The notes beneath the pieces are model-generated. The model did no database searches and had not been told where the DNA came from. It saw only the letters and a list, made by a program, of their open reading frames with translations. A program made the translations under genes and the position numbers. Shown here in pieces: positions 21,891-35,902 of a DNA stretch of 64,000 bases. The stretch's first letter is position 1. Each line of letters begins with the position of its first letter. The stretch is from Bacillota bacterium (GTDB taxonomy: Bacteria; Bacillota; Clostridia; Acetivibrionales; JANLFN01): contig JAEZTC010000001.1 of assembly GCA_023421675.1 (NCBI GenBank), forward strand, positions 31,388 through 95,387, given 5' to 3'.

Positions 21891-21937
21891 ATTTTAAATT
21901 CATTTTTAGTTCTAGATTATTTATAAAGGGATGCATA

Positions 21938-22297: not shown

Positions 22298-22300
22298 TTC

Positions 22301-22332
22301 TAATTCTCAATTCTCAATTGTCAATTTTCAAT
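22301..22332. repeat. right 32-nt inverted repeat (AATTCTC heptamers), partner of 21859-21890
   Basis: AATTCTCAATTCTCAATTGTCAATTTTCAATT. Starts 4 nt after the stop codon and ends 10 nt before the tmRNA 5' end. Confidence 0.85.
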
Positions 22333-22341
22333 TATATTTTT

Positions 22342-22732
22342 GGGGGCGTATTGGTTTCGACGGGATTGTTGAGACTTGGGTAGCGGGTAGAGGATTCTCG
22401 TTGGCCTCTTAAAAAACGAGAAACTAAAATTAAACGCTAAAAATAATAACAATTATTCATTAGCTTTAGCAGCTTAATACTGCTAACCGTCAGTCCAGGG
22501 TTCCTGCACCTTGGGTAGCTGGCGTCATTAAGTCAGGCCTTCGGCATAGGAAGGTTAAATGCTGGAACTTTTGCAGCGGTAGCCTTGAGCTGTAATCGTA
22601 TTTAAAGGATACTGAAAGTGTAATCCTGCCTGTGGGAGTGCACCGTAGGGAATGTAAAAATGCAGGATACACCCGTAGAAGCTCTTGTGGATATGGTTTC
22701 GGACAGGGGTTCGACACCCCTCGCCTCCACCA
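22342..22732 (+). ncRNA. ssrA: transfer-messenger RNA (tmRNA, 10Sa RNA)
   Basis: 5' GGGGGCGTATTGGTTTCGACGGG and 3' GGACAGGGGTTCGACACCCCTCGCCTCCACCA. Internal tag reading frame GCT AAA AAT AAT AAC AAT TAT TCA TTA GCT TTA GCA GCT TAA gives AKNNNNYSLALAA. Follows smpB. Confidence 0.95.
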
Positions 22733-22741
22733 AAATGAAAA

Positions 22742-22770
22742 GTATCACCATCAGGTGATGCTTTTTTATT
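22742..22770 (+). terminator. rho-independent terminator of ssrA
   Basis: GTATCACC-atca-GGTGATGC stem followed by TTTTTTATTTT. Confidence 0.8.
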
Positions 22771-22806
22771 TTGCATAGAATCGGAAGGGGTGTCGAACCT
22801 AGCGGC
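22763..22806. repeat. left boundary direct repeat (DR-L) of the ssrA-adjacent island
   Basis: TTTTTATTTTGCATAGAATCGGAAGGGGTGTCGAACCTAGCGGC. The 3' 28-mer is identical to 34807-34834. Begins in the terminator T-tract. Confidence 0.8.
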
Positions 22807-22813
22807 TTGGAGC

Positions 22814-22929
22814 GTAAAGGAAACGTGCTGAATGCACGTTTTTAGCGACAAGTGAGGAGACAGGACCCGCCAGCGGGTGGCGACTCGGAAGTATGCGAGC
22901 ACAGCGAAGCAGACGGTCGACTCTGAGCC
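22814..22929 (+). repeat. ~115-nt conserved element, copy 1 (possible structured RNA)
   Basis: About 93% identical to 23576-23690. Internal hairpins ACGTGC-tgaat-GCACGT and ACCCGC-ca-GCGGGT. Copy 1 is followed by an AAGCCGCT/AGCGGCTT terminator-like hairpin. Confidence 0.6.
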
Positions 22930-23078
22930 TGAGCCAAATAAAGCCGCTGATGAAGCGGCTTTTGCCATAATGGTTAATATAAGCCTGATTAATGAAAGTA
23001 AGTTTCGTGCAATATGGATTTGTGGTAGTTACTTATTTAGTGGATATAGTTTAGTCAAGGGAATCCTATTTCTTGATA

Positions 23079-23225
23079 TTAATCATCTTCGCCGTAACCA
23101 TATTGAGTATTCTTATATCCGCAATACTTACATCTAACATAAGCATATTCATTATCACCATCTTCCCAGGGAAGGGTCAATTCCCCGCCAGACAATGATT
23201 GTCCACAATTTTCACATGTATCCAT
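23079..23225 (-). CDS. 48-aa zinc-ribbon protein (not in the ORF track, below 60 aa)
   Basis: Minus strand reads MDTCENCGQSLSGGELTLPWEDGDNEYAYVRCKYCGYKNTQYGYGEDD*. Two CxxC pairs. Strong RBS AAGGAGGTG 6 nt upstream. Confidence 0.55.
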   Translation of the reverse strand: MDTCENCGQSLSGGELTLPWEDGDNEYAYVRCKYCGYKNTQYGYGEDD

Positions 23226-23575
23226 TAGTGCACCTCCTTAGCTTATCCATTCTCAACAAAATCAATATTATATTAATGTTATGTTATGGAAACTCATAAG
23301 TCAAGTCGATCAACAAAATAGGCGCTGTCATCAGATATTGGAAATTTTCCTATCAACATTTGAACTATGTAGGATAACAAAGTAGTAATCATAAAAAAGT
23401 AATGCAAGGGAAGGGATGAGAAAGAGCCTTCGAGGGGTAATCGCTAAAAAAATTTGGGTAGACATTAGATAGACAATTCTACTTTAAAACTCCAAAATAG
23501 GACATGATATTGCATAATACTGGAAGGTAAAAGATGGGATACCAATTTCCTTGGGATACCTTGTTTTAAGGGATA

Positions 23576-23690
23576 GTAAGGGAAACGTGCTGAATGCACG
23601 TTTTCAGCGATAAGTGAGGAGCCAGGACCCGCCAGCGGGTGGCGACTCGGAAGTATGCGAGTGAAGCGAGCAGACGGTCGACTCTGAGCC
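23576..23690 (+). repeat. ~115-nt conserved element, copy 2
   Basis: Direct-orientation near-identical copy of 22814-22929. Lies about 340 nt upstream of the HD-GHKL gene. Confidence 0.6.
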
Positions 23691-24032
23691 TCTACCAAGC
23701 AAAACCTCGATAGAAGTATAAGTTGCATACTCCATGGCTTTTGTTATTTGTAATCGCATGATGGGTGTAGGGGACTTCAATCAAATTGGTAAATAAAAAT
23801 ATTATAATTAAAAACTTTTGATATTAGTATATTGAGAAAGTTACCTACCTTATTATGTCAGTAACCATGCTTTATGACATAAGGGTAACTATCGTATAAT
23901 ATTAAATACAGAGATTTTTTCGAAAAGATACAATATTCTTGAAAAACAGGGCGGAAGTTGATAAAAATTGTTATTATATGTATAATTATTGCTAATATTA
24001 CTTTTAACTTATGTGGGGGGAATTATAAAATA

Positions 24033-26876
24033 ATGGATTCCATAGAAATACCTAAACGATTTGAAAAAAAATTAGAGAGTGATCCTGATTATTGTGTTAT
24101 TGTTAAGGAAATAATTCGCAGGTTTTCACCTATTATTAAAGATAATAAATTAGAATTTTTTCCTGAGTACACTGATCATGGGTTCTTACATATAAATAAT
24201 ACTTTACAGCTTGCTGATAGGATAATTCCAGATGAAACATATAATAAATTAAATACTTTAGACATAAGCATGATTATATTATCTGTTTTTTTGCATGACT
24301 TAGGAATGCATATTACATATGAATTTTTTATTGAATTAATTCAAGGAAAGTCTAAAAATTGTATTGATACGAGGGTTGACAATAAAACATGGGATATTTT
24401 ATGGGATGAGTTTTTTGCAGAAGCTAAGCTTTGGAGCGCAAAAAAACGCCAGTCTTTATTTAAGGATGACTTTGAAATTAAGCAACCTCCTATTAAAAGG
24501 GGAGAAGCAACAGAGAATGATAAGAAGTTTATTGGAGAATTTTTGAGGAAATATCACTCAAGACTAGCATACGAAATATGCATTTTTGGATTTCTGCAAG
24601 TTGATGGATCTAGAATGGAGCTTTCTGACAATTTAGACAATAAGCAAAAAGTATTATTAGGACTTATTGCAAGGAGTCATGGCTTAAATTTGTGGGATGT
24701 TTTTCAATACATTGAGAATGAATTTGGAAGGGAACAAATTCGATCACCCAAAAATGTTCATGCAATTTATATTATGGTTGTTTTAAGAATATCAGACTAT
24801 TTTGATATGGATAAAAGTAGGGCTAATACGCCTATTCTGAAATTTAGAAAAATAAATAGTAGTATTTCGGAATTAGAGTGGGAAAAGCATAAGGCAGTTG
24901 ATTATATAGCAATGGAATTTCAAGATGATCCAGAATCAATTTTTGTGTATATTAATGAAATTGCGCAGAGTAAAGTATACTTAGGTATAAATGACTTGTT
25001 GAAAAACATGCAAAGTGAGCTAGATACATGTTGGGCAGTTTTGGGTAAAGTATATGGGGCATATGAGAATTTACAACTTTCTTTTAGGAGAATACATTCA
25101 AATTTGGACAATAAAGATGTGTTCTTAAAGAAAGTAAAATTTGTTCCGGAAAGAATTAAATTTGATTCCAATCCAGATATTTTAAAACTCTTAATACAAC
25201 CTTTATATGGGCATAACCCAGCATATGGAATAAGAGAACTTTTGCAAAATGCTATAGATGCTTGTGTAGAAAAGGAAAAGGTTTATTCTGAAAAGTATAC
25301 ACCTAACATCATAATAACTATTGATCAAGAGTGTTTAACTGTAGAAGATAATGGTATAGGGATGAATAAAGATATATTGATAAATTACTTCCTTGTAGCA
25401 GGAGCTTCATTTAGAAATAGTGATGTATGGAAAAAGACCTATTGTTTAAATGATAAATCTACTATACCAAGAAGTGGAAGATTTGGTGTGGGTGTTTTTG
25501 CTAGTTTTCTTATTGGAAATGAAATTTCAGTTGAAACTTATAGGATGGGTGAAGATATAGGGTATAAATTTGACGCTAATATTGATACAGATCAAATTGA
25601 AGTGATAAAAGTGATTCCTGATGGAAAGAAATCTGGTACCAAAATTAAGATTAAACTAGATAAAATAGTTCTGGAAGAATTGAAAAACCAATTTGAAAAC
25701 AGTACTGATGAAATAAATTGGAGAAATTGGTATTTTGGGGACAACCCAAAACTTATAATAAATGTGCCAGACGGATGGGTGAAGGGGAGGGACAATGATG
25801 AAATAAAGGTTAGTTTATACAATGATAAGCTTGAGTCTTATTGGAAATCAATAAAGCCAGAGGGATATCATAGAGTTGATTGGACGTATAAATCATATAA
25901 TATGCTTATTTGTAATGGGATAATTATTCGAAATGGGTATAGTGCATATAGATTCATGAGATACAGGTTTCCGGAGAGCTTTTTGCAACCTTTAGTTTCA
26001 GTTGTAGACAGTGATGCTAACTTACCTTTAAATCTTGATAGAAATGGCATAAGCAACAATAGGCTTCCTTTCGAAACAGATCTTGTAAAAGACATCTATA
26101 CCGATATTATAGCAAAACTAATAATGTCAAATGATATTACCGAACTAAATGAGGAAAAGTTAATAATAAAAGAAACAAATCTTTTACACCCAGCAATAAG
26201 TCCGAGAGATTATTCGTATCGTGTTTTCGATTCTTCTGATTATCTCTTAACAAAAAAAGGATTTAATTTGTGCCATTACTATAGCTTGGAAAAACTAGAC
26301 GTTAAGCTTATTAATCGAATGTGGGTAAAAAGTGATACTCAACAAATAGATGATAAAGAATTTATCTCTAAGATTGACCATTTGATTGTAACTAAAGGTA
26401 GAATTTCTTCTATACAACAATATAAACAATGCATAGATTTAAATTATGCAATTAATCTTGGGAAGGCATATGATTTATCAAACATTCGGGCCTATATTAA
26501 AAAGGTCGAATTTAATTATATATTTGAAGAAAACAAAAATAGAATGCGTGCTGGATTTGAAAATAATATTGTTATAGAAAGTGAAAGTAACAATTGGTAC
26601 TGTATAACCTATGGAGATGTACCTAGTCCAAAGCTTGATATTGAATATTTGGAAAGGAATAGTAATAATATTAATCTATTTGTAGAATATTATTATAAAC
26701 TTACAACACAAGAGAAACGTCTTCAAGAACAATATTATTATAGATATGATGAAACTACTTTGTTTGAAGAGTTATTGACAAAGTATATGGGGGAAGATAT
26801 TTATATACCATACGATATTGGTACCAGAATGATTAAATATGATAAGCTAGTAAAAGAGATAAATAATGAGGTATAA
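24033..26876 (+). CDS. HD-phosphohydrolase / GHKL (Hsp90-MORC-like HATPase) fusion protein, candidate defence protein
   Basis: N-terminal HD motifs (DHGFLHINN; FLHDLGMH). Central Bergerat ATPase motifs: N-box ELLQNAIDA, G1 VEDNGIGM, G2 GRFGVGVFASF. The reading frame opens at 23958 with an I-rich AT-junk extension. Strikingly AT-rich codon usage. Confidence 0.75.
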   Translation: MDSIEIPKRFEKKLESDPDYCVIVKEIIRRFSPIIKDNKLEFFPEYTDHGFLHINNTLQLADRIIPDETYNKLNTLDISMIILSVFLHDLGMHITYEFFIELIQGKSKNCIDTRVDNKTWDILWDEFFAEAKLWSAKKRQSLFKDDFEIKQPPIKRGEATENDKKFIGEFLRKYHSRLAYEICIFGFLQVDGSRMELSDNLDNKQKVLLGLIARSHGLNLWDVFQYIENEFGREQIRSPKNVHAIYIMVVLRISDYFDMDKSRANTPILKFRKINSSISELEWEKHKAVDYIAMEFQDDPESIFVYINEIAQSKVYLGINDLLKNMQSELDTCWAVLGKVYGAYENLQLSFRRIHSNLDNKDVFLKKVKFVPERIKFDSNPDILKLLIQPLYGHNPAYGIRELLQNAIDACVEKEKVYSEKYTPNIIITIDQECLTVEDNGIGMNKDILINYFLVAGASFRNSDVWKKTYCLNDKSTIPRSGRFGVGVFASFLIGNEISVETYRMGEDIGYKFDANIDTDQIEVIKVIPDGKKSGTKIKIKLDKIVLEELKNQFENSTDEINWRNWYFGDNPKLIINVPDGWVKGRDNDEIKVSLYNDKLESYWKSIKPEGYHRVDWTYKSYNMLICNGIIIRNGYSAYRFMRYRFPESFLQPLVSVVDSDANLPLNLDRNGISNNRLPFETDLVKDIYTDIIAKLIMSNDITELNEEKLIIKETNLLHPAISPRDYSYRVFDSSDYLLTKKGFNLCHYYSLEKLDVKLINRMWVKSDTQQIDDKEFISKIDHLIVTKGRISSIQQYKQCIDLNYAINLGKAYDLSNIRAYIKKVEFNYIFEENKNRMRAGFENNIVIESESNNWYCITYGDVPSPKLDIEYLERNSNNINLFVEYYYKLTTQEKRLQEQYYYRYDETTLFEELLTKYMGEDIYIPYDIGTRMIKYDKLVKEINNEV

Positions 26877-26895
26877 GGAAGGTATATTGCCCCAG

Positions 26896-27110
26896 GTTCC
26901 TCATTATTTTACAGCATCGGCAAGAACCCATTTATAGGGGATAACTTTCACTGCGATTTTGGGAAAAACATATATATTGGTGATAATTTTCACGCCGATT
27001 ATAACTGTACAATGCTGGACGTTTGGGAGATAGCCTGTGACCCACTGTATAGATGCCGACATCCGGCCCAATCAGGCAGTTGTTTCCAATACGAATTTCT
27101 GCAAAAGAGT
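26896..27110. pseudogene. scrambled hexapeptide-repeat acetyltransferase (Maa/LacA-like) remnant
   Basis: Plus strand 26896-27026 encodes NPFIGDNFHCDFGKNIYIGDNFHADYNCTMLDV. The next segment, EIRIGNNCLIGPDVGIYTVGH, is on the minus strand (27100-27038). Local inversion, no intact ORF. Confidence 0.55.
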
Positions 27111-27336
27111 TGCTTGCCTGGTAACAGGTGCATTTCCGTCTTGTATTGGCCGGAAGCAAACCATCAATTATATAAAACAAGCTTGTGAGTTAAAAGGTGC
27201 GAAGATTTGTGGAATAGGAAGTGTGGGATGGTGGAGTTTTAATCGCAGTAGGCAAATCTCGGAAGTAGTTAATCATTTGACAAATTGCTTTAAATAGTTT
27301 TAGGACATAAAATACAAGGGTAACTGTATTCCGCTA

Positions 27337-27366
27337 GGGTTGTGATGATAATCACAACCCTTTTTA
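27337..27366 (+). terminator. rho-independent terminator (plus-strand orientation)
   Basis: GGGTTGTGAT-gata-ATCACAACCC stem followed by TTTTTAATTT. Confidence 0.6.
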
Positions 27367-27384
27367 ATTTAATCTCTAACCTAA

Positions 27385-28365
27385 TCAGTGTCCGCCTGAT
27401 TGAAGGTTCAACTGCCTGCTAATCCGTTCCTTTACCTGCGATAGAAAATTATCTGGTCCCAAAACTTTTACTACTGGTCCAAAACTTAAAATACGAATCA
27501 GTAGTTCGGTTTCATCTGCGGGGTCAAAGTTGATGCGGCAAGTGTAAGTATCTCGGTCTTTATCATACTCTGTCTGCCGTTCAAAAGATGCAAATTGAAG
27601 CATACAACGTTCTAATGCGTTACGTTCTTTTGAAATTTCTAAAACCACAGGTTCATTGTGGAAAGGTTCTTTATAAAGTGCATCCAAATCAACAAAAATA
27701 TCAAATTGGTTTTCTGATGGCATAACAGATTTTATGCGCCCAAGATTTAATGTAATCCGTTCAAGTTTGTTATGATGACGGTTGAATGCAGCGCACATGA
27801 GCCTGAATTTATCGTCGCGCGCCGAATAGCATATTTTATACGGATGATATTGCCGCTTGGTACGGCCACCCTTACTACTGCCATATTCGATAATCAGGGG
27901 CTGATGTGCTTTGCAAGCACCGAGAATAGCTTTAAATCGGGCAATATACCCGTCATCGTTGTAATCATCACCGTCAAGATGCTTGTCATATATATGAAAG
28001 TCATTCTGTTCATATAGTGGTTCGATATTATTCAGCGATTCATCTAATACCGTTAGTTGGCTGTCATTTAAAAACAATTTTATACGCCGATCATTAAGAA
28101 GTGCTTTTAACCATGATTTTTCAAGAGTAGTTAAAGGCCTCTTTGTTTCACTGTTGAATTTTGTGAAATATTTTTTGTCCCTTTCCGCAAGTAAACTCCA
28201 TTCACTGGAAAAGAGTGAAGGCAGCAGATGAAAAGCTGTATCATAAAAGCCGTATCCGGAAACAAGTTGTTCAATCTCGGATTTAGATAAGCCGTTCTGG
28301 GCTTGCTCCAAAATTTTAGCCACAACAGTGAAATAGCATCCATAAATTTCGGAAAACAATTCCAT
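27385..28365 (-). CDS. WYL-domain protein (downstream gene of a tandem pair)
   Basis: WYL-like core PYKICYSARDDKFRLMCAAFNRHHNKLERITLNLGRIKSV. AGGAGGTG RBS 6 nt before ATG 28365. Start overlaps the upstream stop codon (TGATG). Confidence 0.7.
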   Translation of the reverse strand: MELFSEIYGCYFTVVAKILEQAQNGLSKSEIEQLVSGYGFYDTAFHLLPSLFSSEWSLLAERDKKYFTKFNSETKRPLTTLEKSWLKALLNDRRIKLFLNDSQLTVLDESLNNIEPLYEQNDFHIYDKHLDGDDYNDDGYIARFKAILGACKAHQPLIIEYGSSKGGRTKRQYHPYKICYSARDDKFRLMCAAFNRHHNKLERITLNLGRIKSVMPSENQFDIFVDLDALYKEPFHNEPVVLEISKERNALERCMLQFASFERQTEYDKDRDTYTCRINFDPADETELLIRILSFGPVVKVLGPDNFLSQVKERISRQLNLQSGGH

Positions 28366-29600
28366 CACTGCTCACCTCCTATACTATACATCTCTGCCAT
28401 TTGGTTAATATCACTGTAAAAACGGTTGACAACAAGCTCGTTTGTCCCTTCAAGCGCGAGAATGCGGCCGGTGAATGTCTTAATCCATGGCGACATATCT
28501 GATGAGTCAAACATTTCCTTGGTGTATAGAAAAGTATTTGTGTCAAGATGCGTAAGTACACCGCCCTGACCCTCTCTCAAGATACGATGGATGATATATT
28601 GCTCACGTTTTTCATCAATGTACAGCTTCATGCATATAACTTCCTTACGGTGTTCACCGCCAAAGCTGACTCCCCAGACCTTATCTAGATTAGTACTTAG
28701 CTTTTCTTTGATTTCAGGAGCAAAATCAATTACAACATCAGGCACAACCGATTTAATATAATCCAAACGATAATTGAAAAAGCGGCGTTTTCGTAGCGAA
28801 TACATGCATGCATATCGGCGCCCGGTTGTCGCACTGACAAATATTTTCAGCGGCAATGCATGTGTGGTCGTGGTCTTTCCGCTTCTTTCGCTTTGATTTT
28901 CAAATACTACTGATTGATTTTTGTGAATAGCTGTAAGCAATTCAAGCAAAATACCGTCCTCAAGAGTGTATGCGATATAGTGATGTTTAAACGCAAATAG
29001 GTCATTTTCAGCATTTTCGTTATCCAAAATATAACTGCCAACTTCCCCGATTGGAGCAACTCCCTGAAAAAACTTGATTGCATCTAAGAATTCATGTGTT
29101 ATGTTGATAGTTTGCGGGGCGATACCGTAGAAAAATACTTTCCCTTGTTTTTCACAAGTCATCATGCCGATTCTTACATACTCATTGCACTTTCCACGGA
29201 CTGTCTGAGCATCAAAAGTGACACCACTTTTTTCGCAAATATAATCAGTAAGTGCATCCACGGCCATTTTTCTGCTTCTTAATGCGTCCAGAATATAAAA
29301 ATGCAGCATAATATCATTTGAAGTAAAACTTTTAGACTTCCATGCTGCGAACAATGGATTAACAGGAATTTTAGAACTGTCCACTGATATGAAGGAGGTT
29401 TTACTGCCATCTTTGTAATCCCATTTCATATATTTCTTGAGATAACTCTCACATCGACGTTTTTCATTATCATAGGTTCTGGCGGATTTTTTAGTGAAAT
29501 CATTGCGCGACTTGAAGCCATATACATAGAAATCTCGCATATAGTCTCGGATTTTATCAAATCTTTTTATCAGTTCTGAAAACTCTGCCATGCCCCTCAC
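28365..29600 (-). CDS. WYL-domain protein (upstream gene of a tandem pair)
   Basis: WYL-like core PLKIFVSATTGRRYACMYSLRKRRFFNYRLDYIKSV. Start is uncertain (GTG 29600 or ATG 29591). Divergent from rtcB. Confidence 0.65.
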   Translation of the reverse strand: MRGMAEFSELIKRFDKIRDYMRDFYVYGFKSRNDFTKKSARTYDNEKRRCESYLKKYMKWDYKDGSKTSFISVDSSKIPVNPLFAAWKSKSFTSNDIMLHFYILDALRSRKMAVDALTDYICEKSGVTFDAQTVRGKCNEYVRIGMMTCEKQGKVFFYGIAPQTINITHEFLDAIKFFQGVAPIGEVGSYILDNENAENDLFAFKHHYIAYTLEDGILLELLTAIHKNQSVVFENQSERSGKTTTTHALPLKIFVSATTGRRYACMYSLRKRRFFNYRLDYIKSVVPDVVIDFAPEIKEKLSTNLDKVWGVSFGGEHRKEVICMKLYIDEKREQYIIHRILREGQGGVLTHLDTNTFLYTKEMFDSSDMSPWIKTFTGRILALEGTNELVVNRFYSDINQMAEMYSIGGEQ

Positions 29601-29710
29601 CCAATAATATGATAATAATTATTCCTTAAAAAATCAACTTCGCAAACTTTTTTAAATGAAAGCAAAATAAGTTACTGGTAAAATTTAACCATAGAAAGGA
29701 GATGAATACA

Positions 29711-30943
29711 ATGTTTGTAATTTCAAACGAAAACACAAATGTACCTATTAAAATTTGGCTGTCAGATGAAAACAAAATTGAGGAAAGCTGTCTTGAACAG
29801 GCGTACCACCTCGCTAATCTGCCATTTTTACATAAATGGGTTTCATTAATGCCTGATACACATACGGGCATGGGAATGCCAATTGGTGGTGTAATTGCCA
29901 CAACCGGTGTAATAATTCCGAACGCTGTTGGTGTAGATATCGGATGTGGAATGGCTTTTGTCGGAACAGATATTAAGGTCGCTGAAATTCATGAAGTTAT
30001 GACCGGGAACGGTTCACTTCTTCAGGGCATTGTTGGAGACATCCTTCGCAATGTACCAGTCGGCTTTAATCATCATAAGAATATTCAAAGTTGCACCACT
30101 CTTGATGTTGCACTTGATAATATGGATAAATATGAAGCAAATACCGAGCTTGTAGGGCAAATTGATGCTGGCTATTATCAGATTGGGACACTTGGCGGGG
30201 GTAATCACTTTATTGAGTTACAGGAAGATAATGATGGCAATTTTGGTATAATGATTCACTCCGGCAGCCGTAATTTTGGTAAGCAAGTATGTGACTACTT
30301 CCACAAAGCCGCCCGTGATTTAAATCAAAAATGGTATTCAAAGATTCCTGATGAATGGCGGTTGGCATTTTTACCGGTTGATTCAAGTGAGGGTAAACAA
30401 TACATTAACTGGATGAATTTAGCGCTTGATTTTGCTGCTGAAAACCGTTCTAAAATGATGTATGCAGTACGTTCAATCATCGAAAAATGGATTGGCAAAT
30501 ATACGAATATTAGTTTTAACTATGCTGATGAAATAAACTGCCACCATAATTATGCTGCAATTGAACATCATTACGATAAAAATGTATGGGTTCACCGCAA
30601 AGGGGCGACCAGAGCACGACTTGGTGAAATCGCAGTTATTCCAGGTGCAATGGGTTCCTATAGCTATGTGGTTGAAGGTTTAGGGAATGAAATGAGCTTC
30701 TGCTCGTCTTCACACGGGGCAGGTCGTCAATATTCACGCAAAGTTGCAATGCAGAATTTTTCTACTGAACAGGTCATGGTCGATTTGAAAGAGCAGGGTG
30801 TTATTCTCGGGAAGCAAAACAAAGAAGACGTGGCGGAAGAAAGTCGCTTTGCATATAAGGATATAGATGTTGTAATGGAAAATCAACAGGATTTGGTTAA
30901 GCCAATCAAAAAGTTAAAGACTATAGGTGTGGTCAAAGGTTAG
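29711..30943 (+). CDS. rtcB: RNA-splicing ligase RtcB (3'-phosphate/5'-OH RNA ligase)
   Basis: RtcB motifs PDTHTGMGMPIGGV, NAVGVDIGCGM, GGGNHFIEL and the catalytic His in SSHGAGR. AGGAG RBS 9 nt upstream of ATG 29711. Confidence 0.9.
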   Translation: MFVISNENTNVPIKIWLSDENKIEESCLEQAYHLANLPFLHKWVSLMPDTHTGMGMPIGGVIATTGVIIPNAVGVDIGCGMAFVGTDIKVAEIHEVMTGNGSLLQGIVGDILRNVPVGFNHHKNIQSCTTLDVALDNMDKYEANTELVGQIDAGYYQIGTLGGGNHFIELQEDNDGNFGIMIHSGSRNFGKQVCDYFHKAARDLNQKWYSKIPDEWRLAFLPVDSSEGKQYINWMNLALDFAAENRSKMMYAVRSIIEKWIGKYTNISFNYADEINCHHNYAAIEHHYDKNVWVHRKGATRARLGEIAVIPGAMGSYSYVVEGLGNEMSFCSSSHGAGRQYSRKVAMQNFSTEQVMVDLKEQGVILGKQNKEDVAEESRFAYKDIDVVMENQQDLVKPIKKLKTIGVVKG

Positions 30944-31029
30944 GTTTTAGGGTGTTGCAGCCTTATATACAACTGATTTATTCTATGCTAAGGGATCAAA
31001 ATCCTTTGCGGTGCCGTAGCGACTAGCTT

Positions 31030-31094
31030 CACGGTATGCCGGGTAGATCAGAAAAATGACAGACAGTGTCGGAGGTTCGAATCCTCTACCCGTG
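31030..31094 (+). other. tRNA-like element 1 (T-arm GGAGG-TTCGAAT-CCTCT plus enclosing stem), not a canonical tRNA
   Basis: Perfect T-arm at 31071-31087, flanked by CACGG (31030-34) and CCGTG (31090-94). GGGTAGA (31041-31047) is complementary to TCTACCC (31085-31091). No D-arm or anticodon arm can be drawn. Confidence 0.4.
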
Positions 31095-31096
31095 AA

Positions 31097-31197
31097 AGGG
31101 TTAACTCAGTTGGAAGAGTATGTCTAGTTTTAGACTGAAAAGCTAAAACTCAAATGGTAAGCGAGCAGTCGCCTGAGGTTCAAATCCTCAATCAGGG
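31097..31197 (+). other. tRNA-like element 2 (D-arm-like ACTC-AGTTGGAA-GAGT, T-arm TGAGG-TTCAAAT-CCTCA)
   Basis: D-arm-like hairpin at 31104-31119, GTCTA-gttt-TAGAC hairpin, T-arm at 31174-31190, 3' ATCAGGG. No matching 5' acceptor strand. Confidence 0.4.
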
Positions 31198-31453
31198 AAA
31201 AGACCTTTCAAGTCTATTCACAAATGGTAGAAATCAAAAATGTCCGGCAAGAGATGGACTGGAAACCATATCATCTTTTGCAACGATTAGCCAGCCAGTG
31301 GTGAAAAGGATACCGTTTGTTTCAGGATTGTTCCATAACGTTCAAGTGATGAATGTACACCGGACAATGACGGAAAAACTTCAATTTTTACCCCGCAGGA
31401 AAAGCGTGGACATTTTTGATAGAAACCGAAATTAAAAGGAAAGAGGTAATAAA

Positions 31454-32548
31454 ATGAAGATTGTTATTAATGAAAATGAACGCGGCTTTTTATTTAAGAA
31501 TGGTACATATCGTAAATTGCTATTACCTGGAAAACATCATATTTACAGGTGTTTTGGAGAATCATATGCACGAACTGATGTTGCAAAGCATGTGCAGGTT
31601 GCCAATACGGATATCGCTGTACTGTTAAAAGATAAATTATTTGCAGAAAGCGTTACAAGAATTGATGTTCCTGATGGATTTGTCGCCATACGAATGGAGG
31701 ACAGCAGAATTACAAGCACTCTACAGCCTGGAACATATTGTTTCTGGAACTGCTACCGAACTCAAAGTTTCAAATTAATTGATATTTCAAAGCCCGAGGT
31801 AACCGATTTGACACGCGAACAGTTAATGGCTGTGCCACGCAATATGTACGCAAAAATTGAAATACCGGAAGGTGAGACAGGTTTGCTGTTTTTTGACGGC
31901 AAGCTAGAGCGCAAACTTGAAAGTGGCAGCTATTACTTCTGGAATAGTATGACGAAAATTACATGCCAGAACATTGATATGCGTGCACAGCAGCTTGACA
32001 TTGCTGGTCAGGAGATCCTGACAGCAGATAAAGTGTCGCTGAGGCTTAACTTTGTATGCACCTACAGAATCACTGATGCAGTCAAAATCGTCAGCGATAT
32101 CAGGGACTACAAAGCACAGATTTATACTATGACACAGCTTGCTCTGCGTGAATATGTCGGCAAGTTTCGTTTCGACGAATTGTTGGAGCAAAAGGACTCC
32201 ATCGCCGCTTTTGTTCTGGAACAATTAAGGGCTAAACAGGACGCGTTGTTTGTGGAATTTTTCGATGCTGGTTTGAAGGATATTATTTTGCCTGGAGAAA
32301 TCCGTGACATTATGAACACTGTGTTGATCGCCGAAAAAAATGCACAGGCTAATGTGATTGCTCGCCGCGAGGAGGTTGCATCTACCAGAAGCTTACTGAA
32401 TACTGCTAAGTTGATGGAGGAAAATGCTACACTTTATAAACTGAAAGAGATGGAATATCTTGAAAAAATCTGCGACAGGGTTGGAAACATTTCAGTTGGT
32501 GGAGGAAACTTACTGACCGAACTGCGTGGGATTTTGAGTTCAAAATAA
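31454..32548 (+). CDS. SPFH/band-7 (stomatin-prohibitin-like) domain protein
   Basis: C-terminal half aligns with the SPFH domain (VSLRLNFVCTYRITDAVKIV...AQANVIARREEVASTRSL). RBS is AAAGGAAAGAGG. Confidence 0.7.
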   Translation: MKIVINENERGFLFKNGTYRKLLLPGKHHIYRCFGESYARTDVAKHVQVANTDIAVLLKDKLFAESVTRIDVPDGFVAIRMEDSRITSTLQPGTYCFWNCYRTQSFKLIDISKPEVTDLTREQLMAVPRNMYAKIEIPEGETGLLFFDGKLERKLESGSYYFWNSMTKITCQNIDMRAQQLDIAGQEILTADKVSLRLNFVCTYRITDAVKIVSDIRDYKAQIYTMTQLALREYVGKFRFDELLEQKDSIAAFVLEQLRAKQDALFVEFFDAGLKDIILPGEIRDIMNTVLIAEKNAQANVIARREEVASTRSLLNTAKLMEENATLYKLKEMEYLEKICDRVGNISVGGGNLLTELRGILSSK

Positions 32549-32578
32549 ATGTCTAAAGTGATAACAACAATTCAAAAT

Positions 32579-32625
32579 AACAGGACTGTTTCTTTACTAT
32601 TGATGGCAAAGTGAACAGTCCTGTT
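32579..32625 (+). terminator. long hairpin (possible terminator) after the SPFH gene
   Basis: AACAGGACTGTT and AACAGTCCTGTT (12-bp stem, 23-nt loop). Weak T-tract. Confidence 0.35.
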
Positions 32626-32836
32626 TAATTGGAAATGTATGTTAATAACTTTGGAATTGGTTATTTTTTGTTGATTTTTAATCTATATAATATATTCCAC
32701 AATATTAACAAATGTATCAAGAGTGTAATATTAATATATCCGTTTACATCAAGTTCTTCCCTGTCGGTTATACCCTTATTAAGAGTACAAAGTAGTACGG
32801 CACATTCTTAAAAATTTACATTTTTTAGATAAACAC

Positions 32837-32867
32837 TTGACACTTACCTTACGTAAGATGTTACGAT
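32837..32867 (+). promoter_or_regulatory. MerR-type promoter with 19-bp spacer and operator palindrome
   Basis: TTGACA (32837-42), 19-nt spacer containing the perfect palindrome CTTACGTAAG (32848-57), -10-like TACGAT (32862-67). Lies 25 nt upstream of the MerR gene. Confidence 0.55.
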
Positions 32868-32891
32868 TAACGCGGAAGGCAGGTAATTATT

Positions 32892-33614
32892 ATGAAAATT
32901 AAGCAGGTATGCGATAGTACAGGTCTGTCTGAACGCACGATACGCTTTTATATTGAGAAAGGGCTTATACAGCCTCAAAGCTGTGAACAGAATCGGCGTA
33001 CATACTATGAGTTTGGAGAAGATGATGTTCGACAAACCGAGCAGATTGCAATACTACGGAAAATAGGCTTTTCCATTGCCGAAATTCTAACTATGAAAAA
33101 TGAACCTGAGTGCATTGGTTCCATTATAGAAGAACACCTGATTTCGTTGGAGGAGAGTGCAAGAAAACAGGCTGAAGCCTTGACAGCAGTACAAAATGCT
33201 GTTGGCAGTCAATACCCCAGCCTGTCAGCGCTATGTGCCGTACTTACTGAAAGCGCTGAACATCTTGAATTACCGCAACGTGATGTATGGCCGCATTTCG
33301 CTCAATTTGATGAGGAAACACCCGAGGAGCGCGAAAAATCCTACCAGAGTTTTTTAGACCGGCATAACCGGAAGGAGAAAAGACTCAAGTGGCTGAAACC
33401 CGCTCTGCTTTCCCTGTGCGCGGCTGCACTTATTTTCGGGGTAGTCATTGGTGTCAGCTACATACCTCGCCATATTCAAAGAGAGTTTTTGGGAAGTGAG
33501 TTGGAGATGGCGGTGAAGGTTCAAAACTACTTAAAAAAACGGATATTCATATCGAAGGATGGTTATATGGAGGATTGTTTACAACGCCAAGCTTCAAGGG
33601 GGTATTTGAACTGA
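32892..33614 (+). CDS. MerR-family transcriptional regulator with C-terminal transmembrane anchor
   Basis: N-terminal MerR HTH (MKIKQVCDSTGLSERTIRFYIEKGLI). Predicted TM helix LKPALLSLCAAALIFGVVIGV. Confidence 0.8.
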   Translation: MKIKQVCDSTGLSERTIRFYIEKGLIQPQSCEQNRRTYYEFGEDDVRQTEQIAILRKIGFSIAEILTMKNEPECIGSIIEEHLISLEESARKQAEALTAVQNAVGSQYPSLSALCAVLTESAEHLELPQRDVWPHFAQFDEETPEEREKSYQSFLDRHNRKEKRLKWLKPALLSLCAAALIFGVVIGVSYIPRHIQREFLGSELEMAVKVQNYLKKRIFISKDGYMEDCLQRQASRGYLN

Positions 33615-33940
33615 GCACATATCCGTTTACACACGATACTCAGGTTGAAATACCCTTTCTACATGATAAAGGGGATGTATGTCCAATTGTTTATTGTTAT
33701 TATAAGGATGGTTTACCGCATACAAGTAGTTTGGGAATGCTTTATACCGATAGCAATTTTCGTTCAGTAGCTATCCAGCTATTCGATAAGAAGAAAAACG
33801 GTGACGGAATCGAAAGCGGCTCAATAGGAAACCGTGTCATTGCTGCTCCGGCAAGTGATTTGCAAATGGCTTCTTCAGTCTTGGATGAACGTAATATCTA
33901 CTGGATGGATTTCAAAGGCGTATACCATTATCCAAGATAA
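33575..33940 (+). CDS. hypothetical protein (overlaps the MerR gene 3' end; start uncertain)
   Basis: 121-aa tracked ORF. No recognisable motifs and no clear RBS. Confidence 0.3.
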   Translation: MFTTPSFKGVFELSTYPFTHDTQVEIPFLHDKGDVCPIVYCYYKDGLPHTSSLGMLYTDSNFRSVAIQLFDKKKNGDGIESGSIGNRVIAAPASDLQMASSVLDERNIYWMDFKGVYHYPR

Positions 33941-34061
33941 CAGAATCTCAAAATAAATTCAAAAATGCAATTATTATTTGCATATACACCATATTTGATG
34001 TAAAATATAATTGTGAATACATCAAAAGTGGTGTATAAACATGTAATACAGGAGAAATACT

Positions 34062-34409
34062 ATGAATGTACATCATTATGAAACAAGGGGAGGCAAAGAC
34101 ATAATCCTTGAGTATATTGACGAGCTTCCCAAAAATGAAAAAGCAGAGGGGTTAACAATTCTTGAAAAACTTGAGGATGAAGGATTCGCAGCACTTGATG
34201 TACTAAATACGAGACAACTCAGGGCAAAGCTCTGGGAAATCAAGTTTTATGATAATAATAGGATTATGTATGTTATAGCAGACGGGGAAAATATGTATTT
34301 GGTTCATGTTTGTAAAAAGCAGAAGGGTAAAGCTGAAAGGTTTGAATTGGATAAAGCAATAAAAAGAGTCAGGGAACTGGAAACGGAACTGGGCAAGAGA
34401 TTTATTTGA
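34062..34409 (+). CDS. type II toxin, RelE/ParE superfamily (HigB / Gp49-like, DUF891-type)
   Basis: LRAKLWEIKFYDNNRIMYVIADGENMYLVHVCKKQKGKAE matches the Gp49/HigB-like killer fold pattern. Followed 22 nt later by an XRE-HTH gene. RBS is CAGGAGAAA. Confidence 0.65.
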   Translation: MNVHHYETRGGKDIILEYIDELPKNEKAEGLTILEKLEDEGFAALDVLNTRQLRAKLWEIKFYDNNRIMYVIADGENMYLVHVCKKQKGKAERFELDKAIKRVRELETELGKRFI

Positions 34410-34430
34410 ATGAATGAGAGGTGAATACCC

Positions 34431-34745
34431 ATGCCGTTTAAAAAAGTCAATGTTAAGGAAGAAATCAACAAAAGGCTGGAAAATGACGTAGAACTTAAGA
34501 AAGCATATGCTAATGCACAGCATGAGTATGAAGTTATCAAGCAGCTTGTAAAAATAAGAAATGAAATGGGTTTTTCCCAAAGTGATGTTGCAAGGCAGTC
34601 CGGATTGACACAGCAGATGGTTTCCAGGATTGAAACCGTAGATAACTCCCCCACGCTCAGGAACTTTATAAAGTATGTAGACAGCCTGGGCTTGGAAATC
34701 AGGATTGAGAAAAAGGATGCAAAAATGGAGTGCGGAAAGGTGTAG
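34431..34745 (+). CDS. HTH XRE-family antitoxin (HigA-like)
   Basis: HTH segment LVKIRNEMGFSQSDVARQSGLTQQMVSRIE. RBS is GAGAGGTGA. Confidence 0.7.
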   Translation: MPFKKVNVKEEINKRLENDVELKKAYANAQHEYEVIKQLVKIRNEMGFSQSDVARQSGLTQQMVSRIETVDNSPTLRNFIKYVDSLGLEIRIEKKDAKMECGKV

Positions 34746-34768
34746 GTTTGGAGAGGGCGGAAAGGATG

Positions 34769-34800
34769 GAACAGGGTGAACCTGTTCTCTTTTTATTTTG
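34769..34800 (+). terminator. rho-independent terminator after the TA pair
   Basis: GAACAGG-gtgaa-CCTGTTC stem followed by TCTTTTTATTTT. Confidence 0.8.
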
Positions 34801-34834
34801 TATGGAAATCGGAAGGGGTGTCGAACCTAGCGGC
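34787..34834. repeat. right boundary direct repeat (DR-R) of the island
   Basis: CTCTTTTTATTTTGTATGGAAATCGGAAGGGGTGTCGAACCTAGCGGC. The 28-mer is identical to DR-L. Also begins in a terminator T-tract. Confidence 0.8.
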
Positions 34835-35066
34835 AAGAAAAGAATTTTAAGCTTTTAAACAATAAAGTCATGAAACAGAGTCTTATAAATAACCTTTATC
34901 ATTATGTTAAAAATAAATAGCTTTACCGTTATATGGTGAAAAGTTGTATCTTTTAGAGCGAATGGGCAAAAAATGAATAAAATCATTCTAAAATAGTCCA
35001 TATTAATCCTTGAATCATACTCGAGTATGGAATAGTATATATATAACCATTTAATGGGAGGGCGCT

Positions 35067-35192
35067 ATGCAACAAATTACATTTTTAATAGCTTATATTC
35101 TGGGTCTTGCCTTAAATATTGCAATTGTATATTTTATTGTTAAACTTATTATACGTTACCTAGAGAAGGTAAGAAGTAGTAAAGCAAAATAA
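35067..35192 (+). CDS. 41-aa hydrophobic peptide (type-I-toxin-like; not in the ORF track)
   Basis: MQQITFLIAYILGLALNIAIVYFIVKLIIRYLEKVRSSKAK. One TM helix plus a basic tail. Strong RBS GGGAGGG 5 nt upstream. Confidence 0.45.
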   Translation: MQQITFLIAYILGLALNIAIVYFIVKLIIRYLEKVRSSKAK

Positions 35193-35256
35193 TACTTTAT
35201 TCTGTAAATATTGACATTATTTGCTTATGGGTGTATTATATTTACAAAAAGCAGAA

Positions 35257-35302
35257 ACCTCCTAGATTAAAATTCTTTTGCGGAGATCCCTTAATCTAGG
35301 AG
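35257..35302. repeat. perfect 13-bp inverted repeat with 20-nt spacer
   Basis: CCTCCTAGATTAA (35257-69) and TTAATCTAGGAGG (35290-302). No T-tract follows. Confidence 0.7.
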
Positions 35303-35902
35303 GTAACACCCCTTCCAATAATTGAAAGGTAATTCTATTATATACCTTATTTTTGGCAAATTTTAATCATGCTTTTTGGCAAATAAGATTCCCTAGAAGA
35401 TTAATAATAACACACAATGGTCAAAACATTTAGGTCTTAGGGGTCTTCCACCCCCCAAACCCCTGGAAAACCAATACAAGGCATTAAAGAAAATCATTTA
35501 ATATCTTTGTTTAAATTAATTGCCAGTTTTATAACGAAAGTTATTTACCAAACCGATGAACTTCCTGTCTCATTTGAAAAACGGGAACCCCGACGACTTA
35601 GAATACAGAAAGCTACTTGTTATAGCGTCTATATTTACATCAACGATAATGGAGGCCATAATGCAACCGTAATATTCAATGTGGGCAACCAGCCGCCCAT
35701 ACATGTGGATGTGTCTCTATTGGATGAAATACAGGGCAATAGTGGTTCTTATGCGTCCCTGTTGCCTCCACAATACTAGAAAACCAAGTGCTTCAGATAA
35801 ACTGAGATGCTTGGTTTCTTATTTTGTCCGGTTTTAAAGGAATATAGATTCGAATATAAATTAAGGTCTGAACCCGTGCCCGGAATCAGACCTTTGATAA
35901 CA

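What the first reader, a model, noticed from the sequence alone, without database searches (positions are those of the whole stretch)
22763..34834. A ~12-kb accessory island directly 3' of ssrA, bounded by 44-48-nt direct repeats, with no recombinase
Sequence: two stretches (22763-22806 and 34787-34834) share an identical 28-mer, AATCGGAAGGGGTGTCGAACCTAGCGGC, and a similar T-rich lead-in (TTTTTATTTTG[C/T]AT[A/G]GAA). Each starts inside the U-tract of a rho-independent terminator, that of ssrA on the left and that of the HigA-like gene on the right. The enclosed cargo looks accessory: an AT-rich HD-GHKL fusion, a scrambled acetyltransferase pseudogene, tandem WYL genes with rtcB, tRNA-like fragments, an SPFH protein, a MerR regulator and a HigBA-like TA pair. 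Outside the repeats the genes are housekeeping (smpB/ssrA on one side, SDR/truA on the other). Established knowledge: the 3' side of ssrA is a classic integration hotspot for genomic islands. Atypically, no integrase or recombinase is present. The 14-nt core AGGGGTGTCGAACC is the reverse complement of the tmRNA T-loop segment, so the repeat is not the usual direct duplication of the tmRNA 3' end. Inference: a decayed or non-canonically mobilised defence/stress island.
Basis: partly seen in the sequence, partly recalled or inferred. Interest (0 to 1): 0.8.

Follow-up and report, generated by a model that had tools for sequence, protein, structure and literature searches.

The report
Patchwork of island relics beside ssrA
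The two repeats are real, but they do not bound one 12-kb island: each is a copy of a small flank module of the tmRNA gene, and the DNA between them is a strain-variable patchwork of relics from repeated integrations at a known hotspot.

Summary
An exact 28-mer with a T-rich lead-in occurs twice, 12 kb apart, and no recombinase lies between the copies or anywhere in the window. The single-island reading fails. About 20 conspecific contigs show at least four independently varying slots. One strain keeps the HD-GHKL-to-MerR cargo but lacks the right repeat. Others carry the right repeat (HigBA-repeat-41-aa-ORF, 1.8 kb) with different cargo. In others the sequence to the right of the right repeat sits directly after ssrA. 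The recombinases are elsewhere. A conspecific strain has a CcrB/DsiB-like large serine recombinase abutting ssrA, with a DISARM island. Recombinase-less islands in other strains still carry that family's attP arm. Related species have tyrosine integrases at ssrA. In this window the serine-recombinase site in ssrA is unoccupied. Read on the minus strand, the repeat is a diverged copy of the ssrA 3' end. Together with the ssrA terminator it forms a 93-nt palindrome. The same layout (terminator, anti-T-arm, GC-rich core, copy of the ssrA 3' end) recurs in at least four distant Clostridia. I read the region as a tandem array of decayed ssrA elements, as described in Dehalococcoides. The function of the anti-T-arm module is unexplained.

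The parts
21396..21860 (+). smpB, the conserved left anchor
   Evidence: Pfam SmpB, 2.4e-66. The product is identical in 21 conspecific contigs.
22342..22732 (+). ssrA (tmRNA), intron-less. Its last 12 nt, TCGCCTCCACCA, form the identity block (attB core) of the serine-recombinase islands. The site is unoccupied in this window.
   Evidence: ARAGORN and Rfam. attL/attR comparison. Recombinase tails GGGE|....
22708..22799 (.). Imperfect palindrome of about 93 nt: tmRNA T-arm, acceptor/CCA, terminator T1 (hairpin 22744-22759, T-tract 22762-22773), spacer, anti-T-arm (22786-22799)
   Evidence: DNA fold -28.5 kcal/mol, z -6.0, 0 of 200 shuffles as good. The outer stem is 14 bp and perfect.
22763..22806 (+). 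Left copy of the repeat (T-tract lead-in plus 28-mer). Read on the minus strand it is a diverged copy of the ssrA 3' end plus its flank.
   Evidence: The two copies rank directly after true ssrA in a scan of the window for resemblance to the tmRNA 3' end.
22807..22945 (+). D1A, a GC-rich element of about 137 nt ending ...GACGGTCGACTCTGAGCCTGAGCCAA. Interpreted as an attR-type relic (element right arm plus decayed copy of the ssrA 3' end).
   Evidence: Repeat family D1/D2. Equivalent position and partial homology to the cores in L051, L076 and L077, which end in clean copies of the ssrA 3' end.
22936..22970 (+). Terminator-like hairpin GCCGCTGATGAAGCGGC-TTTT directly after D1A. It is 89% identical to the sequence that follows ssrA (the left arm of a tyrosine-integrase island) in L028.
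   Evidence: blastn; sequences.
23079..23225 (-). 48-aa zinc-ribbon-like ORF between D1A and D1B
   Evidence: ORF list. Only weak zinc-ribbon Pfam hits.
23571..23706 (+). D1B, the second copy of D1 (91%/84% identical to D1A), ending ...GAGCCTCTACCAA
23958..26876 (+). 972-aa HD-CE + GHKL ATPase. Low-GC cargo of the variable slot between D1 and the flavodoxin gene. Candidate defence gene.
   Evidence: Pfam; GC 0.29-0.32; no PADLOC hit. Other strains have a flavodoxin gene at this position.
27103..27279 (+). 3' fragment of a flavodoxin gene, truncated by arrival of the HD-GHKL segment
   Evidence: tblastn: 85% to residues 84-142 of the L001 flavodoxin, 1e-30. The synteny breakpoint is at 27103 in every strain.
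27337..27366 (+). Hairpin T2, GGGTTGTGATGATAATCACAACCC-TTTTTA. In intron-bearing strains a second copy lies directly after ssrA.
27385..32548 (.). Semi-conserved block: WYL(-), WYL(-), RtcB(+), weak YrlA-like tRNA-like region (31063-31123), SPFH(+). L005-type strains have Thoeris instead.
   Evidence: Pfam; Rfam weak hit; strain comparison.
32892..33940 (+). MerR-family gene, frameshifted here into 240 + 121 aa; intact at 349 aa in most strains
   Evidence: A 1-nt length difference appears in the alignment.
33970..35770 (+). 1.8-kb presence/absence module: higB (34062-34409), higA (34431-34745), hairpin (34768-34789), right repeat, 41-aa ORF (35067-35192), 90-aa ORF (35507-35779). It ends ...CCCTGTTGCCTCCAC at 35756-35770, a possible decayed ssrA 3' end.
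   Evidence: Indel boundaries from L011, L013, L014, L015 and L019 against the window. The junction ranks in the top 0.06% for resemblance to the tmRNA 3' end. An alignment to the serine-recombinase arm is not significant.
34790..34834 (+). Right copy of the repeat (anti-T-arm at 34814-34827). It is an orphan arm with no palindromic partner.
   Evidence: fold z -1.2. Together with 34835-35356 it is 97.7% identical to the DNA directly after ssrA in L005.
35903..36661 (-). SDR gene, followed by truA (36824-37606). This is the conserved right anchor within the species.
   Evidence: Pfam. The product is identical in 23 contigs.

Best explanation
The stretch between ssrA and the SDR gene is a strain-variable stack of decayed integrative elements, not one island. 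Elements have entered at the 3' end of ssrA again and again, each pushing older ones to the right. At least two recombinase families were involved. One is a tyrosine integrase crossing over in or near the T-loop. The other is a CcrB/DsiB-like large serine recombinase crossing over within the last 12 nt. Recombinase genes and much cargo were later lost. Slots were then swapped between strains by deletion, illegitimate joins and homologous exchange. The 46-nt repeat is the module 'terminator T-tract + anti-T-arm' that lies just beyond the ssrA terminator. It is an inverted, diverged copy of the ssrA 3' end. The left copy sits in its home position, followed by an attR-type relic (D1A). The right copy belongs to an older unit (repeat, 41-aa ORF, 90-aa ORF, decayed 3'-end copy) that now lies next to the SDR gene. 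That unit was either displaced there by later integrations or carried in on an element's left arm. higBA was joined to it at the T-tract. In this window the serine-recombinase site in ssrA is empty. What is shown: the slot structure, the recombinases and their att arms in relatives, and the palindrome with its recurrence in other species. What is inferred: the order of events, D1 as an attR relic, and the history of the right copy.
For: Slots vary independently among conspecific contigs.
- Slot A lies between the ssrA CCA end and [12-nt ssrA end + T1 + repeat]. It is empty in the window. It holds FRG+AIPR in L001/L004, a 282-aa gene in L002, RCC1 in L005, and a serine recombinase with DISARM in L006.
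- The slot between D1 and the flavodoxin gene holds HD-GHKL or flavodoxin.
- WYL-RtcB-SPFH alternates with Thoeris.
- The HigBA-repeat module alternates with about 112 nt.

Recombinase evidence.
- The L006 recombinase has Resolvase+Recombinase+Zn_ribbon domains and is CcrB-like. It lies next to DrmA (1508 bits).
- Homologues at 69-73% identity in other species again abut ssrA and carry defence cargo. One overlaps ssrA by 73 nt.
- Many homologue tails read GGGEGSRTPVRN, which is the reverse complement of the tmRNA end. Others read GGGEPYQFK.
- All slot-A islands share the right end ...GAATGGTACGGT|TCGCCTCYACCA. On the minus strand it encodes YFGRGEPYHSKITTSIEGYRH (blastx 9e-7).
- Tyrosine integrases with arm-type repeats follow ssrA in L028 and L032.
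- The terminator after D1A is 89% identical to the L028 left arm.

Repeat evidence.
- Palindrome fold z is -6.
- The repeat copies are the best matches to the tmRNA 3' end in the window after ssrA itself.
- The architecture recurs in L051, L076, L077 and L080, each with a clean direct copy of its ssrA 3' end.

The published precedent is the tandem ssrA islands of Dehalococcoides, which include units without integration modules (PMC3146451).
Against: The window contains no clean direct copy of the ssrA 3' end. D1 aligned against the whole tmRNA is not significant. The 35756-35770 relic is weak. No strain shows the simple ancestral state ssrA-repeat-34835...-SDR. In L011-type strains a D1-like 112 nt occupies the place of the HigBA module, so at least two events separate the two types. 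The left arm T1+repeat in L005 is unlike the left arm of the recombinase-bearing island (the recombinase gene itself). This requires capture of flank DNA, or excision between non-cognate sites, and that is assumed rather than shown. Why an element or flank should carry an inverted T-arm is unexplained.
Confidence: 0.6

Rival explanations
1. The 12 kb is one island. The two repeats are its attL and attR. It is mobilised in trans by a recombinase encoded elsewhere, or is now immobile.
For: The repeats are exact and direct. In L005-type strains, ssrA-T1-repeat is joined directly to 34835-35356 (97.7% over 574 nt). That is the junction expected after loss of the 12 kb.
Against: L011 keeps the cargo without the right repeat. 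L017, L018 and L020 keep the right repeat with other cargo. In L005 the junction is followed by other genes and by a second repeat copy, not by the SDR gene. The crossover sites of the recombinases found at this locus are in ssrA itself. In L017 the two copies differ within the 28-mer.
Confidence: 0.08
2. The second copy arose without site-specific recombination. A stretch of ssrA flank (repeat plus 41-aa ORF) was duplicated or moved by illegitimate or homologous recombination, for example at terminator T-tracts. The locus is simply a hotspot where flanking homology drives cassette exchange.
For: The homology of the right copy starts exactly at a T-tract behind an unrelated hairpin. A second pair of this kind exists: hairpin T2 lies after ssrA and again before the WYL genes in L004. 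The HD-GHKL segment ends inside a flavodoxin gene, which is an illegitimate join. Slots assort freely, and block identity ranges from 94.8% to 99.9%.
Against: It does not explain why att-type arms and copies of the ssrA 3' end sit at the junctions. It also does not explain why the same ordered module recurs after ssrA in distant species.
Confidence: 0.17
3. The repeat is a functional cis-element kept at cassette borders. It could be a read-through insulator or RNase III-type processing stem for ssrA transcripts. It could also be a binding or recombination site for an unidentified enzyme.
For: In five or six distant species the anti-T-arm matches that species' own T-arm and lies at a similar distance, +46 to +68. 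The cores of L077 and L076 show 7 compensatory pair changes and no disruption.
Against: Strains with an island at ssrA have ssrA followed by other sequence (T2 or the recombinase gene) and no adjacent anti-T-arm. It is therefore not needed in cis for ssrA. The right copy has no partner arm. The 28-mer lies beyond the T-tract, so most transcripts should end before it (sequence). Variants within the species are not compensatory: L005 has two mismatches.
Confidence: 0.1

Closest known systems
Tandem ssrA-specific genomic islands of Dehalococcoides (McMurdie et al. 2011, PMC3146451)
   Same: Several islands are stacked downstream of the single ssrA gene. A CcrB-like large serine recombinase sits next to attL on the reverse strand, and its ORF runs into the ssrA 3' end. 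Here one homologue overlaps ssrA by 73 nt and the tails read GGGEGSRTPVRN. Some islands lack an integration module and are read as cis-mobilizable or accreted units. Cargo is strain-specific.
   Different: Their islands are marked by clean 20-bp direct repeats starting in the T-loop. Here the identity block is 12 nt at the very end of ssrA. The window itself has no clean copy, only decayed ones. The cargo is defence and stress genes rather than reductive dehalogenases. There is no DsiA/RecF/ParB module; an M78 peptidase gene lies next to the recombinase instead.
tRNA/tmRNA-gene islands integrated by tyrosine integrases (Islander/TIGER definition, PMC4383910)
   Same: The target is the 3' part of ssrA. 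The element restores the gene and leaves a displaced 3' fragment. Related species L028 and L032 have an Arm-DNA-bind + Phage_integrase gene right after ssrA, with arm-type repeats. The mini-elements in L076, L077, L080 and L051 end in 19-21-nt displaced fragments.
   Different: The window has no integrase and no intact displaced fragment. The reported repeat is an inverted, not a direct, copy of the ssrA end, and it lies beyond the terminator.
Cis-mobilizable elements (CIMEs) and accretion of integrative elements (reviewed in PMC5704250)
   Same: DNA is flanked by att sites without any recombination gene. Such units form by decay, or by tandem integration next to a resident element. Mobilisation in trans is possible.
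   Different: Mobility is untested here. In the window the att sites are decayed, so the units are probably fixed.
Chromosomal defence hotspots (e.g. core defence hotspots in Pseudomonas, PMC10250203)
   Same: The same locus between conserved anchors holds different defence systems in different strains. Here these are Thoeris, DISARM and FRG+AIPR.
   Different: Here part of the traffic can be tied to identified site-specific recombinases and att arms.

Membership tests
Single integrated genomic island at a tmRNA gene | Lies directly 3' of, or within the 3' end of, ssrA | tested here: met
   The ssrA end is at 22732 and variable DNA begins within 75 nt of it.
Single integrated genomic island at a tmRNA gene | A displaced ssrA 3' fragment forms a direct repeat at the far end | tested here: not met
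   CCCCTCGCCTCCACCA with up to 3 mismatches occurs only in ssrA itself. The reported repeat is the reverse complement of the T-arm.
Single integrated genomic island at a tmRNA gene | Carries an integrase or recombinase gene | tested here: not met
   Pfam on all major ORFs. tblastn with tyrosine integrases and serine recombinases against the whole window found nothing except the tmRNA-encoded tail.
Single integrated genomic island at a tmRNA gene | Present or absent as one unit among close relatives | tested here: not met
   At least four slots vary independently. L011 has the cargo without the right repeat.
Tandem ssrA islands with CcrB/DsiB-like serine recombinase, including units without recombinase | A large serine recombinase lies next to attL, convergent with ssrA and running into its 3' end | tested here: met
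   Met in the conspecific L006 and in L109 and L111. Not met in the window itself.
Tandem ssrA islands with CcrB/DsiB-like serine recombinase, including units without recombinase | A direct copy of the ssrA 3' end, preceded by a conserved element arm, lies at the far end of each island | tested here: met
   In L001, L002, L004, L005, L013 and L017 the arm GAAGTTGTTATCTTTGAATGGTACGGT is followed by TCGCCTCYACCA. The arm encodes the recombinase's attP-form tail. The window has only decayed candidates: the D1 ends and 35756-35770.
Tandem ssrA islands with CcrB/DsiB-like serine recombinase, including units without recombinase | Excision or integration activity (circular forms) | not testable with these tools
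   Needs PCR or read-level evidence, or an in vitro assay.
Generic REP-like or MITE-like dispersed repeat | Many copies at unrelated loci | tested here: not met
   There are two copies in 64 kb. In conspecific loci it occurs only at this locus. It is absent from 80 related ssrA loci, from IMG/VR and JGI metagenomes, and from the phage and plasmid collections. The rest of the source genome could not be scanned.
Defence island or hotspot | Known defence systems occupy the locus in different strains | tested here: met
   ThsA/ThsB in L005, DrmA+methylase+MZB in L006, FRG+AIPR in L001/L004. For the window's own HD-CE/GHKL gene the test is inconclusive, with no PADLOC hit.

The most novel reading that the evidence does not exclude
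The unit 'ssrA terminator, inverted copy of the host's own T-arm, GC-rich hairpin core, direct copy of the ssrA 3' end, next terminator' may be a distinct and so far undescribed element family, not a random scar. It is 150-210 nt long and was seen in the window species and in four or five distant Clostridia. It could be a minimal, trans-mobilised attP-only element. It could also be a structured RNA or single-stranded-DNA element tied to ssrA. The window's left repeat+D1A would be one intact copy and the right repeat a broken one.
Probability: 0.2. Interest if true: 0.6.

Novelty: new member of a known kind. Interest (0 to 1): 0.35.

Why it matters
This case shows how a pair of perfect direct repeats next to ssrA can mislead. 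Here the repeats mark two relics of the same kind of flank module, not the two ends of one mobile unit. The locus is a compact natural example of defence-gene turnover at ssrA in uncultured Clostridia. It can be tied to a specific family of large serine recombinases whose ORF reads across the att site. That gives predicted attB and attP sequences that could be tested, and possibly used as integration tools. The recurrent anti-T-arm module is the only part that specialists might find unexpected.

Tried and rejected
- Rfam found nothing beyond tmRNA. I ran gathering and E-value modes on the window and on four other species. Sub-threshold hits were tmRNA_permuted, YrlA and Intron_gpI.
- Folding D1 as RNA on either strand gave z -0.4 to -1.5, not significant.
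- D1 aligned against the whole tmRNA scored within the shuffle range. The window's right junction against the serine-recombinase arm was also not significant. The 'relic' readings therefore rest on position and on cross-species analogy.
- Exact-pattern scans for the repeat and for the D1 core in IMG/VR and JGI metagenomes gave 0 hits. Phage and plasmid BLAST matched only the tmRNA end.
- Related species fetched through SmpB share upstream but not downstream synteny, so no cross-species empty site could be defined.
- I considered D1 as the minus-strand coding tail of a recombinase. blastx against 120 homologues found no match.
- I considered the palindrome as the serine-recombinase attB. I rejected this because the crossover lies within the last 12 nt of ssrA, about 20-30 nt from the dyad centre.
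- I considered the anti-T-arm as an intron guide sequence, or the core as a ribozyme. I rejected this on size (about 70-110 nt) and the lack of Rfam support.
- The acetyltransferase pseudogene was not confirmed.

Full report
**1.
- The 28-mer AATCGGAAGGGGTGTCGAACCTAGCGGC is exact at 22779-22806 and 34807-34834, with none expected by chance.
- The T-rich lead-ins are similar: two substitutions and one indel.
- In both places the similarity starts at the T-tract, behind a different hairpin. On the left it is the ssrA terminator and on the right the hairpin after higA.
- ssrA is at 22342-22732.
- Pfam confirms the HD-CE+GHKL fusion, two WYL genes, RtcB, SPFH, MerR, and a Gp49/HigB-HTH pair. smpB lies on one side and the SDR gene and truA on the other.
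- tblastn with tyrosine integrases and large serine recombinases finds no remnant anywhere in the 64 kb.
- Low GC is limited to the HD-GHKL gene.
- The acetyltransferase pseudogene was not confirmed.
- The 'tRNA-like fragments' after rtcB give only a weak YrlA-like hit.

**2. It is not one island.** Exact-protein look-ups with SmpB, the SDR, the 41-aa ORF and the HD-GHKL protein returned about 20 conspecific contigs. Their flanks are 98-100% identical to the window. Block-by-block BLAST shows at least four slots that vary independently.
- **Slot A** lies between the CCA end of ssrA and a unit made of [last 12 nt of ssrA + terminator T1 + the repeat].
  - It is empty in the window and in L003.
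  - L001 and L004 hold LAGLIDADG-fragment+FRG+AIPR+SF0329, and L002 holds a 282-aa gene plus SF0329.
  - L005-type strains hold repeat+41-aa ORF+210-aa gene+RCC1.
  - L006 holds a serine recombinase, an M78 peptidase, a methylase, Vsr, DrmA and MZB.
- **Slot B** lies between D1 and a flavodoxin gene. The window has HD-GHKL, whose right boundary cuts the flavodoxin gene at 27103. Other strains have intact flavodoxin.
- **Slot C** holds WYL-WYL-RtcB-SPFH in most strains and Thoeris in L005-type strains.
- **Slot D** is 33970-35770 (higBA, right repeat, 41-aa and 90-aa ORFs).
  - It is present in the window, L012, L017, L018 and L020.
  - About 112 nt replace it in L011, L013, L014, L015, L016 and L019.

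Three comparisons are decisive.
- L011 has HD-GHKL to MerR at 98.6% identity but lacks slot D.
- L017 has slot D with flavodoxin instead of HD-GHKL.
- In L005 the DNA to the right of the right repeat (34835-35356) follows ssrA-T1-repeat directly (97.7% over 574 nt), yet other cargo and a second repeat copy come after it.

**3. The recombinases exist elsewhere, and their sites are in ssrA.**
- *Serine recombinase in L006.* Its SmpB is identical to the window's. A 480-aa large serine recombinase (Resolvase+Recombinase+Zn_ribbon, CcrB-like) abuts the ssrA 3' end, convergent with it. A DISARM island follows.
- *Homologues in other species.* At 69-73% identity they again sit against ssrA-smpB, with an M78 peptidase gene and defence cargo. 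In L111 the ORF overlaps ssrA by 73 nt.
- *Tails.* Many homologue tails read GGGEGSRTPVRN, the translation of the reverse complement of the tmRNA end. Others read GGGEPYQFKSTI, which is the form expected across attP.
- *Shared right end.* All slot-A islands, with or without a recombinase, end ...GAAGTTGTTATCTTTGAATGGTACGGT|TCGCCTC(T/C)ACCA. On the minus strand this arm encodes YFGRGEPYHSKITTSIEGYRH, matching the attP-form tails (blastx 9e-7). These islands therefore belong to that recombinase family.
- *Identity block.* It is the 12 nt TCGCCTCCACCA. A C/T difference between attL and attR suggests that the crossover lies in the final ACCA (inference).
- *State of the window.* It carries the unoccupied site.
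- *Tyrosine integrases.* Related species L028 and L032 have an Arm-DNA-bind + Phage_integrase gene right after ssrA, preceded by four (A/G)GGTAGACA repeats.

**4. What the repeat is.** Read on the minus strand, the repeat is GGTTCGACACCCCT-TCCGATTCTATG-CAAAATAAAAAAG. The ssrA end and its flank read GGTTCGACACCCCT-CGCCTCCAC-CAAAATGAAAAG. The repeat is therefore an inverted, diverged copy of the ssrA end. In a scan of the whole window for resemblance to the tmRNA 3' end, the two copies rank directly after ssrA itself. With terminator T1 in the middle, 22708-22799 forms a 93-nt imperfect palindrome (z -6.0). The right copy is an orphan arm (z -1.2).

**5. The same layout occurs in distant species.** I examined 49 ssrA loci from other species.
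- L077, L051, L076, L080 and, more weakly, L088 each have an inverted copy of their own T-arm variant 46-68 nt beyond the CCA end. Scores are 12-15 against a shuffle maximum of 10.5 or less.
- In L051, L076, L077 and L080 this is followed by a GC-rich core of 70-110 nt. Then comes a clean direct copy of the ssrA 3' end (19-21 nt, from the T-loop or T-stem to CCA), and then another terminator.
- Direct copies of the 3' end were found only in loci that also have the anti-T-arm.
- L076 has further tandem units.
- L051 has a 46-aa recombinase C-terminal remnant right after the copy.
- The window's left repeat+D1A occupies the same position. D1 is about 67% identical to the L051 core over about 54 nt. 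It ends in a decayed 3'-end-like sequence (...GGTCGACTCTGAGCCTCTACCAA in D1B).
- D1A is followed by a terminator that is 89% identical to the ssrA-proximal arm of the L028 integrase island.
- D1 copies or fragments also lie at other slot borders. One is in front of FRG in L001, one in front of Thoeris in L005, and one is within the 112 nt between MerR and the SDR gene.
- The L077 and L076 cores share two nested hairpins with 7 compensatory pair changes and no disruption. This hints at a structural constraint that I cannot explain.

**6. Best reading.** The region is a tandem array of decayed ssrA-targeting elements, reshuffled between strains.
- The left repeat is the native or element-borne flank module, followed by an attR-type relic.
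- The right repeat is the same module from an older unit now lying next to the SDR gene. higBA was joined to it at the T-tract.
- The order of events, the status of D1 as an att relic, and the weak 35756-35770 relic are inferences. Searches show that they are not statistically secure on sequence similarity alone.
- The anti-T-arm is not required next to ssrA, because island-bearing strains have other sequence there.

**7. Comparison with known systems.** The closest described system is the tandem ssrA islands of Dehalococcoides.
- *Shared features.* That system has a CcrB-like recombinase running into ssrA, and units without integration modules interpreted as cis-mobilizable elements (PMC3146451; also PMC5704250, PMC4383910).
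- *Differences here.* The identity block is 12 nt, the cargo is defence genes, two recombinase families are involved, and the window's copy is decayed.
- *Other known feature.* Group I introns in the tmRNA T-loop, seen here in several strains, are also known (PMC11915505).

**8. Verdict.** This is a new member of a known kind, of modest interest. The only element that may be new is the recurrent module of anti-T-arm, core and 3'-end copy.

Noticed in passing
L001 11199-11467; L002, L004, L006 and L109 at the equivalent place: In several conspecific strains and in another species, the tmRNA T-loop is interrupted by an insert of about 270 nt with a group I intron core (..CAAGATATAGTC..). Rfam Intron_gpI gives 21.7 bits, E 0.0036, which is below threshold. 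The window and L005 lack the insert. ARAGORN misses these ssrA genes.
   Followed up: partly
window 22716 (T-loop position 7): The window's tmRNA T-loop is TTCGACA, whereas other strains have TTCGACT. The A makes the 14-bp complementarity with the anti-T-arm perfect. This could reflect gene conversion or template switching within the palindrome.
   Followed up: no
window 21858-22334: A 119-aa gene of the 23S-rRNA-intervening-sequence protein family (weak bAvd-like hit) lies between smpB and ssrA. It is flanked by 34-nt inverted repeats made of AATTGAGAAT units. Several strains have a 115-nt deletion (window 21986-22100) that breaks the gene. L043 has a homologue at the same place.
   Followed up: partly
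window 30950-31200: The region after rtcB contains two T-arm-like motifs (GGAGGTTCGAATCCTC and GAGGTTCAAATCCTC) and a weak YrlA (Y RNA-like) Rfam hit at 31063-31123 (27.5 bits, E 0.014). This suggests an RtcB-associated tRNA-like RNA under control of the paired WYL regulators.
   Followed up: partly
window 27337-27366; L004 11501-11524 and 16881-16904: A second terminator-type short repeat, GGGTTGTGATGATAATCACAACCC. It lies before the WYL genes in all strains. In intron-bearing strains it also lies directly after ssrA, mirroring the behaviour of the reported repeat.
   Followed up: partly
L077 10880-10990 and L076 10900-11015: The cores between the anti-T-arm and the copy of the ssrA 3' end share two nested GC-rich hairpins (loops AGT, internal TGAAT/AGA) and a conserved linker GACCNAGCCCGCAGGCG. 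Seven pair changes are compensatory and none is disruptive.
   Followed up: partly
window 35067-35192: A 41-aa hydrophobic ORF (MQQITFLIAYILGLALNIAIVYFIVKLIIRYLEKVRSSKAK) always travels with the repeat's right-hand partner sequence. It is identical in 16 contigs in two different contexts. It could be a small membrane peptide or a type I toxin.
   Followed up: no
L001 11521-11928 (-), L004 equivalent: A 135-aa LAGLIDADG endonuclease-like ORF lies just downstream of the intron-bearing ssrA, outside the intron and on the opposite strand.
   Followed up: no
L021, L022, L023, L026, L027, L030: Contigs of many related MAGs and genomes end within about 1 kb after ssrA. This is consistent with a hard-to-assemble variable or repeated region at this locus across the group.
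   Followed up: no
window 32892-33940: The MerR-family gene is frameshifted by a 1-nt deletion in the window lineage (also in L012). It is intact at 349 aa in the other strains.
   Followed up: yes
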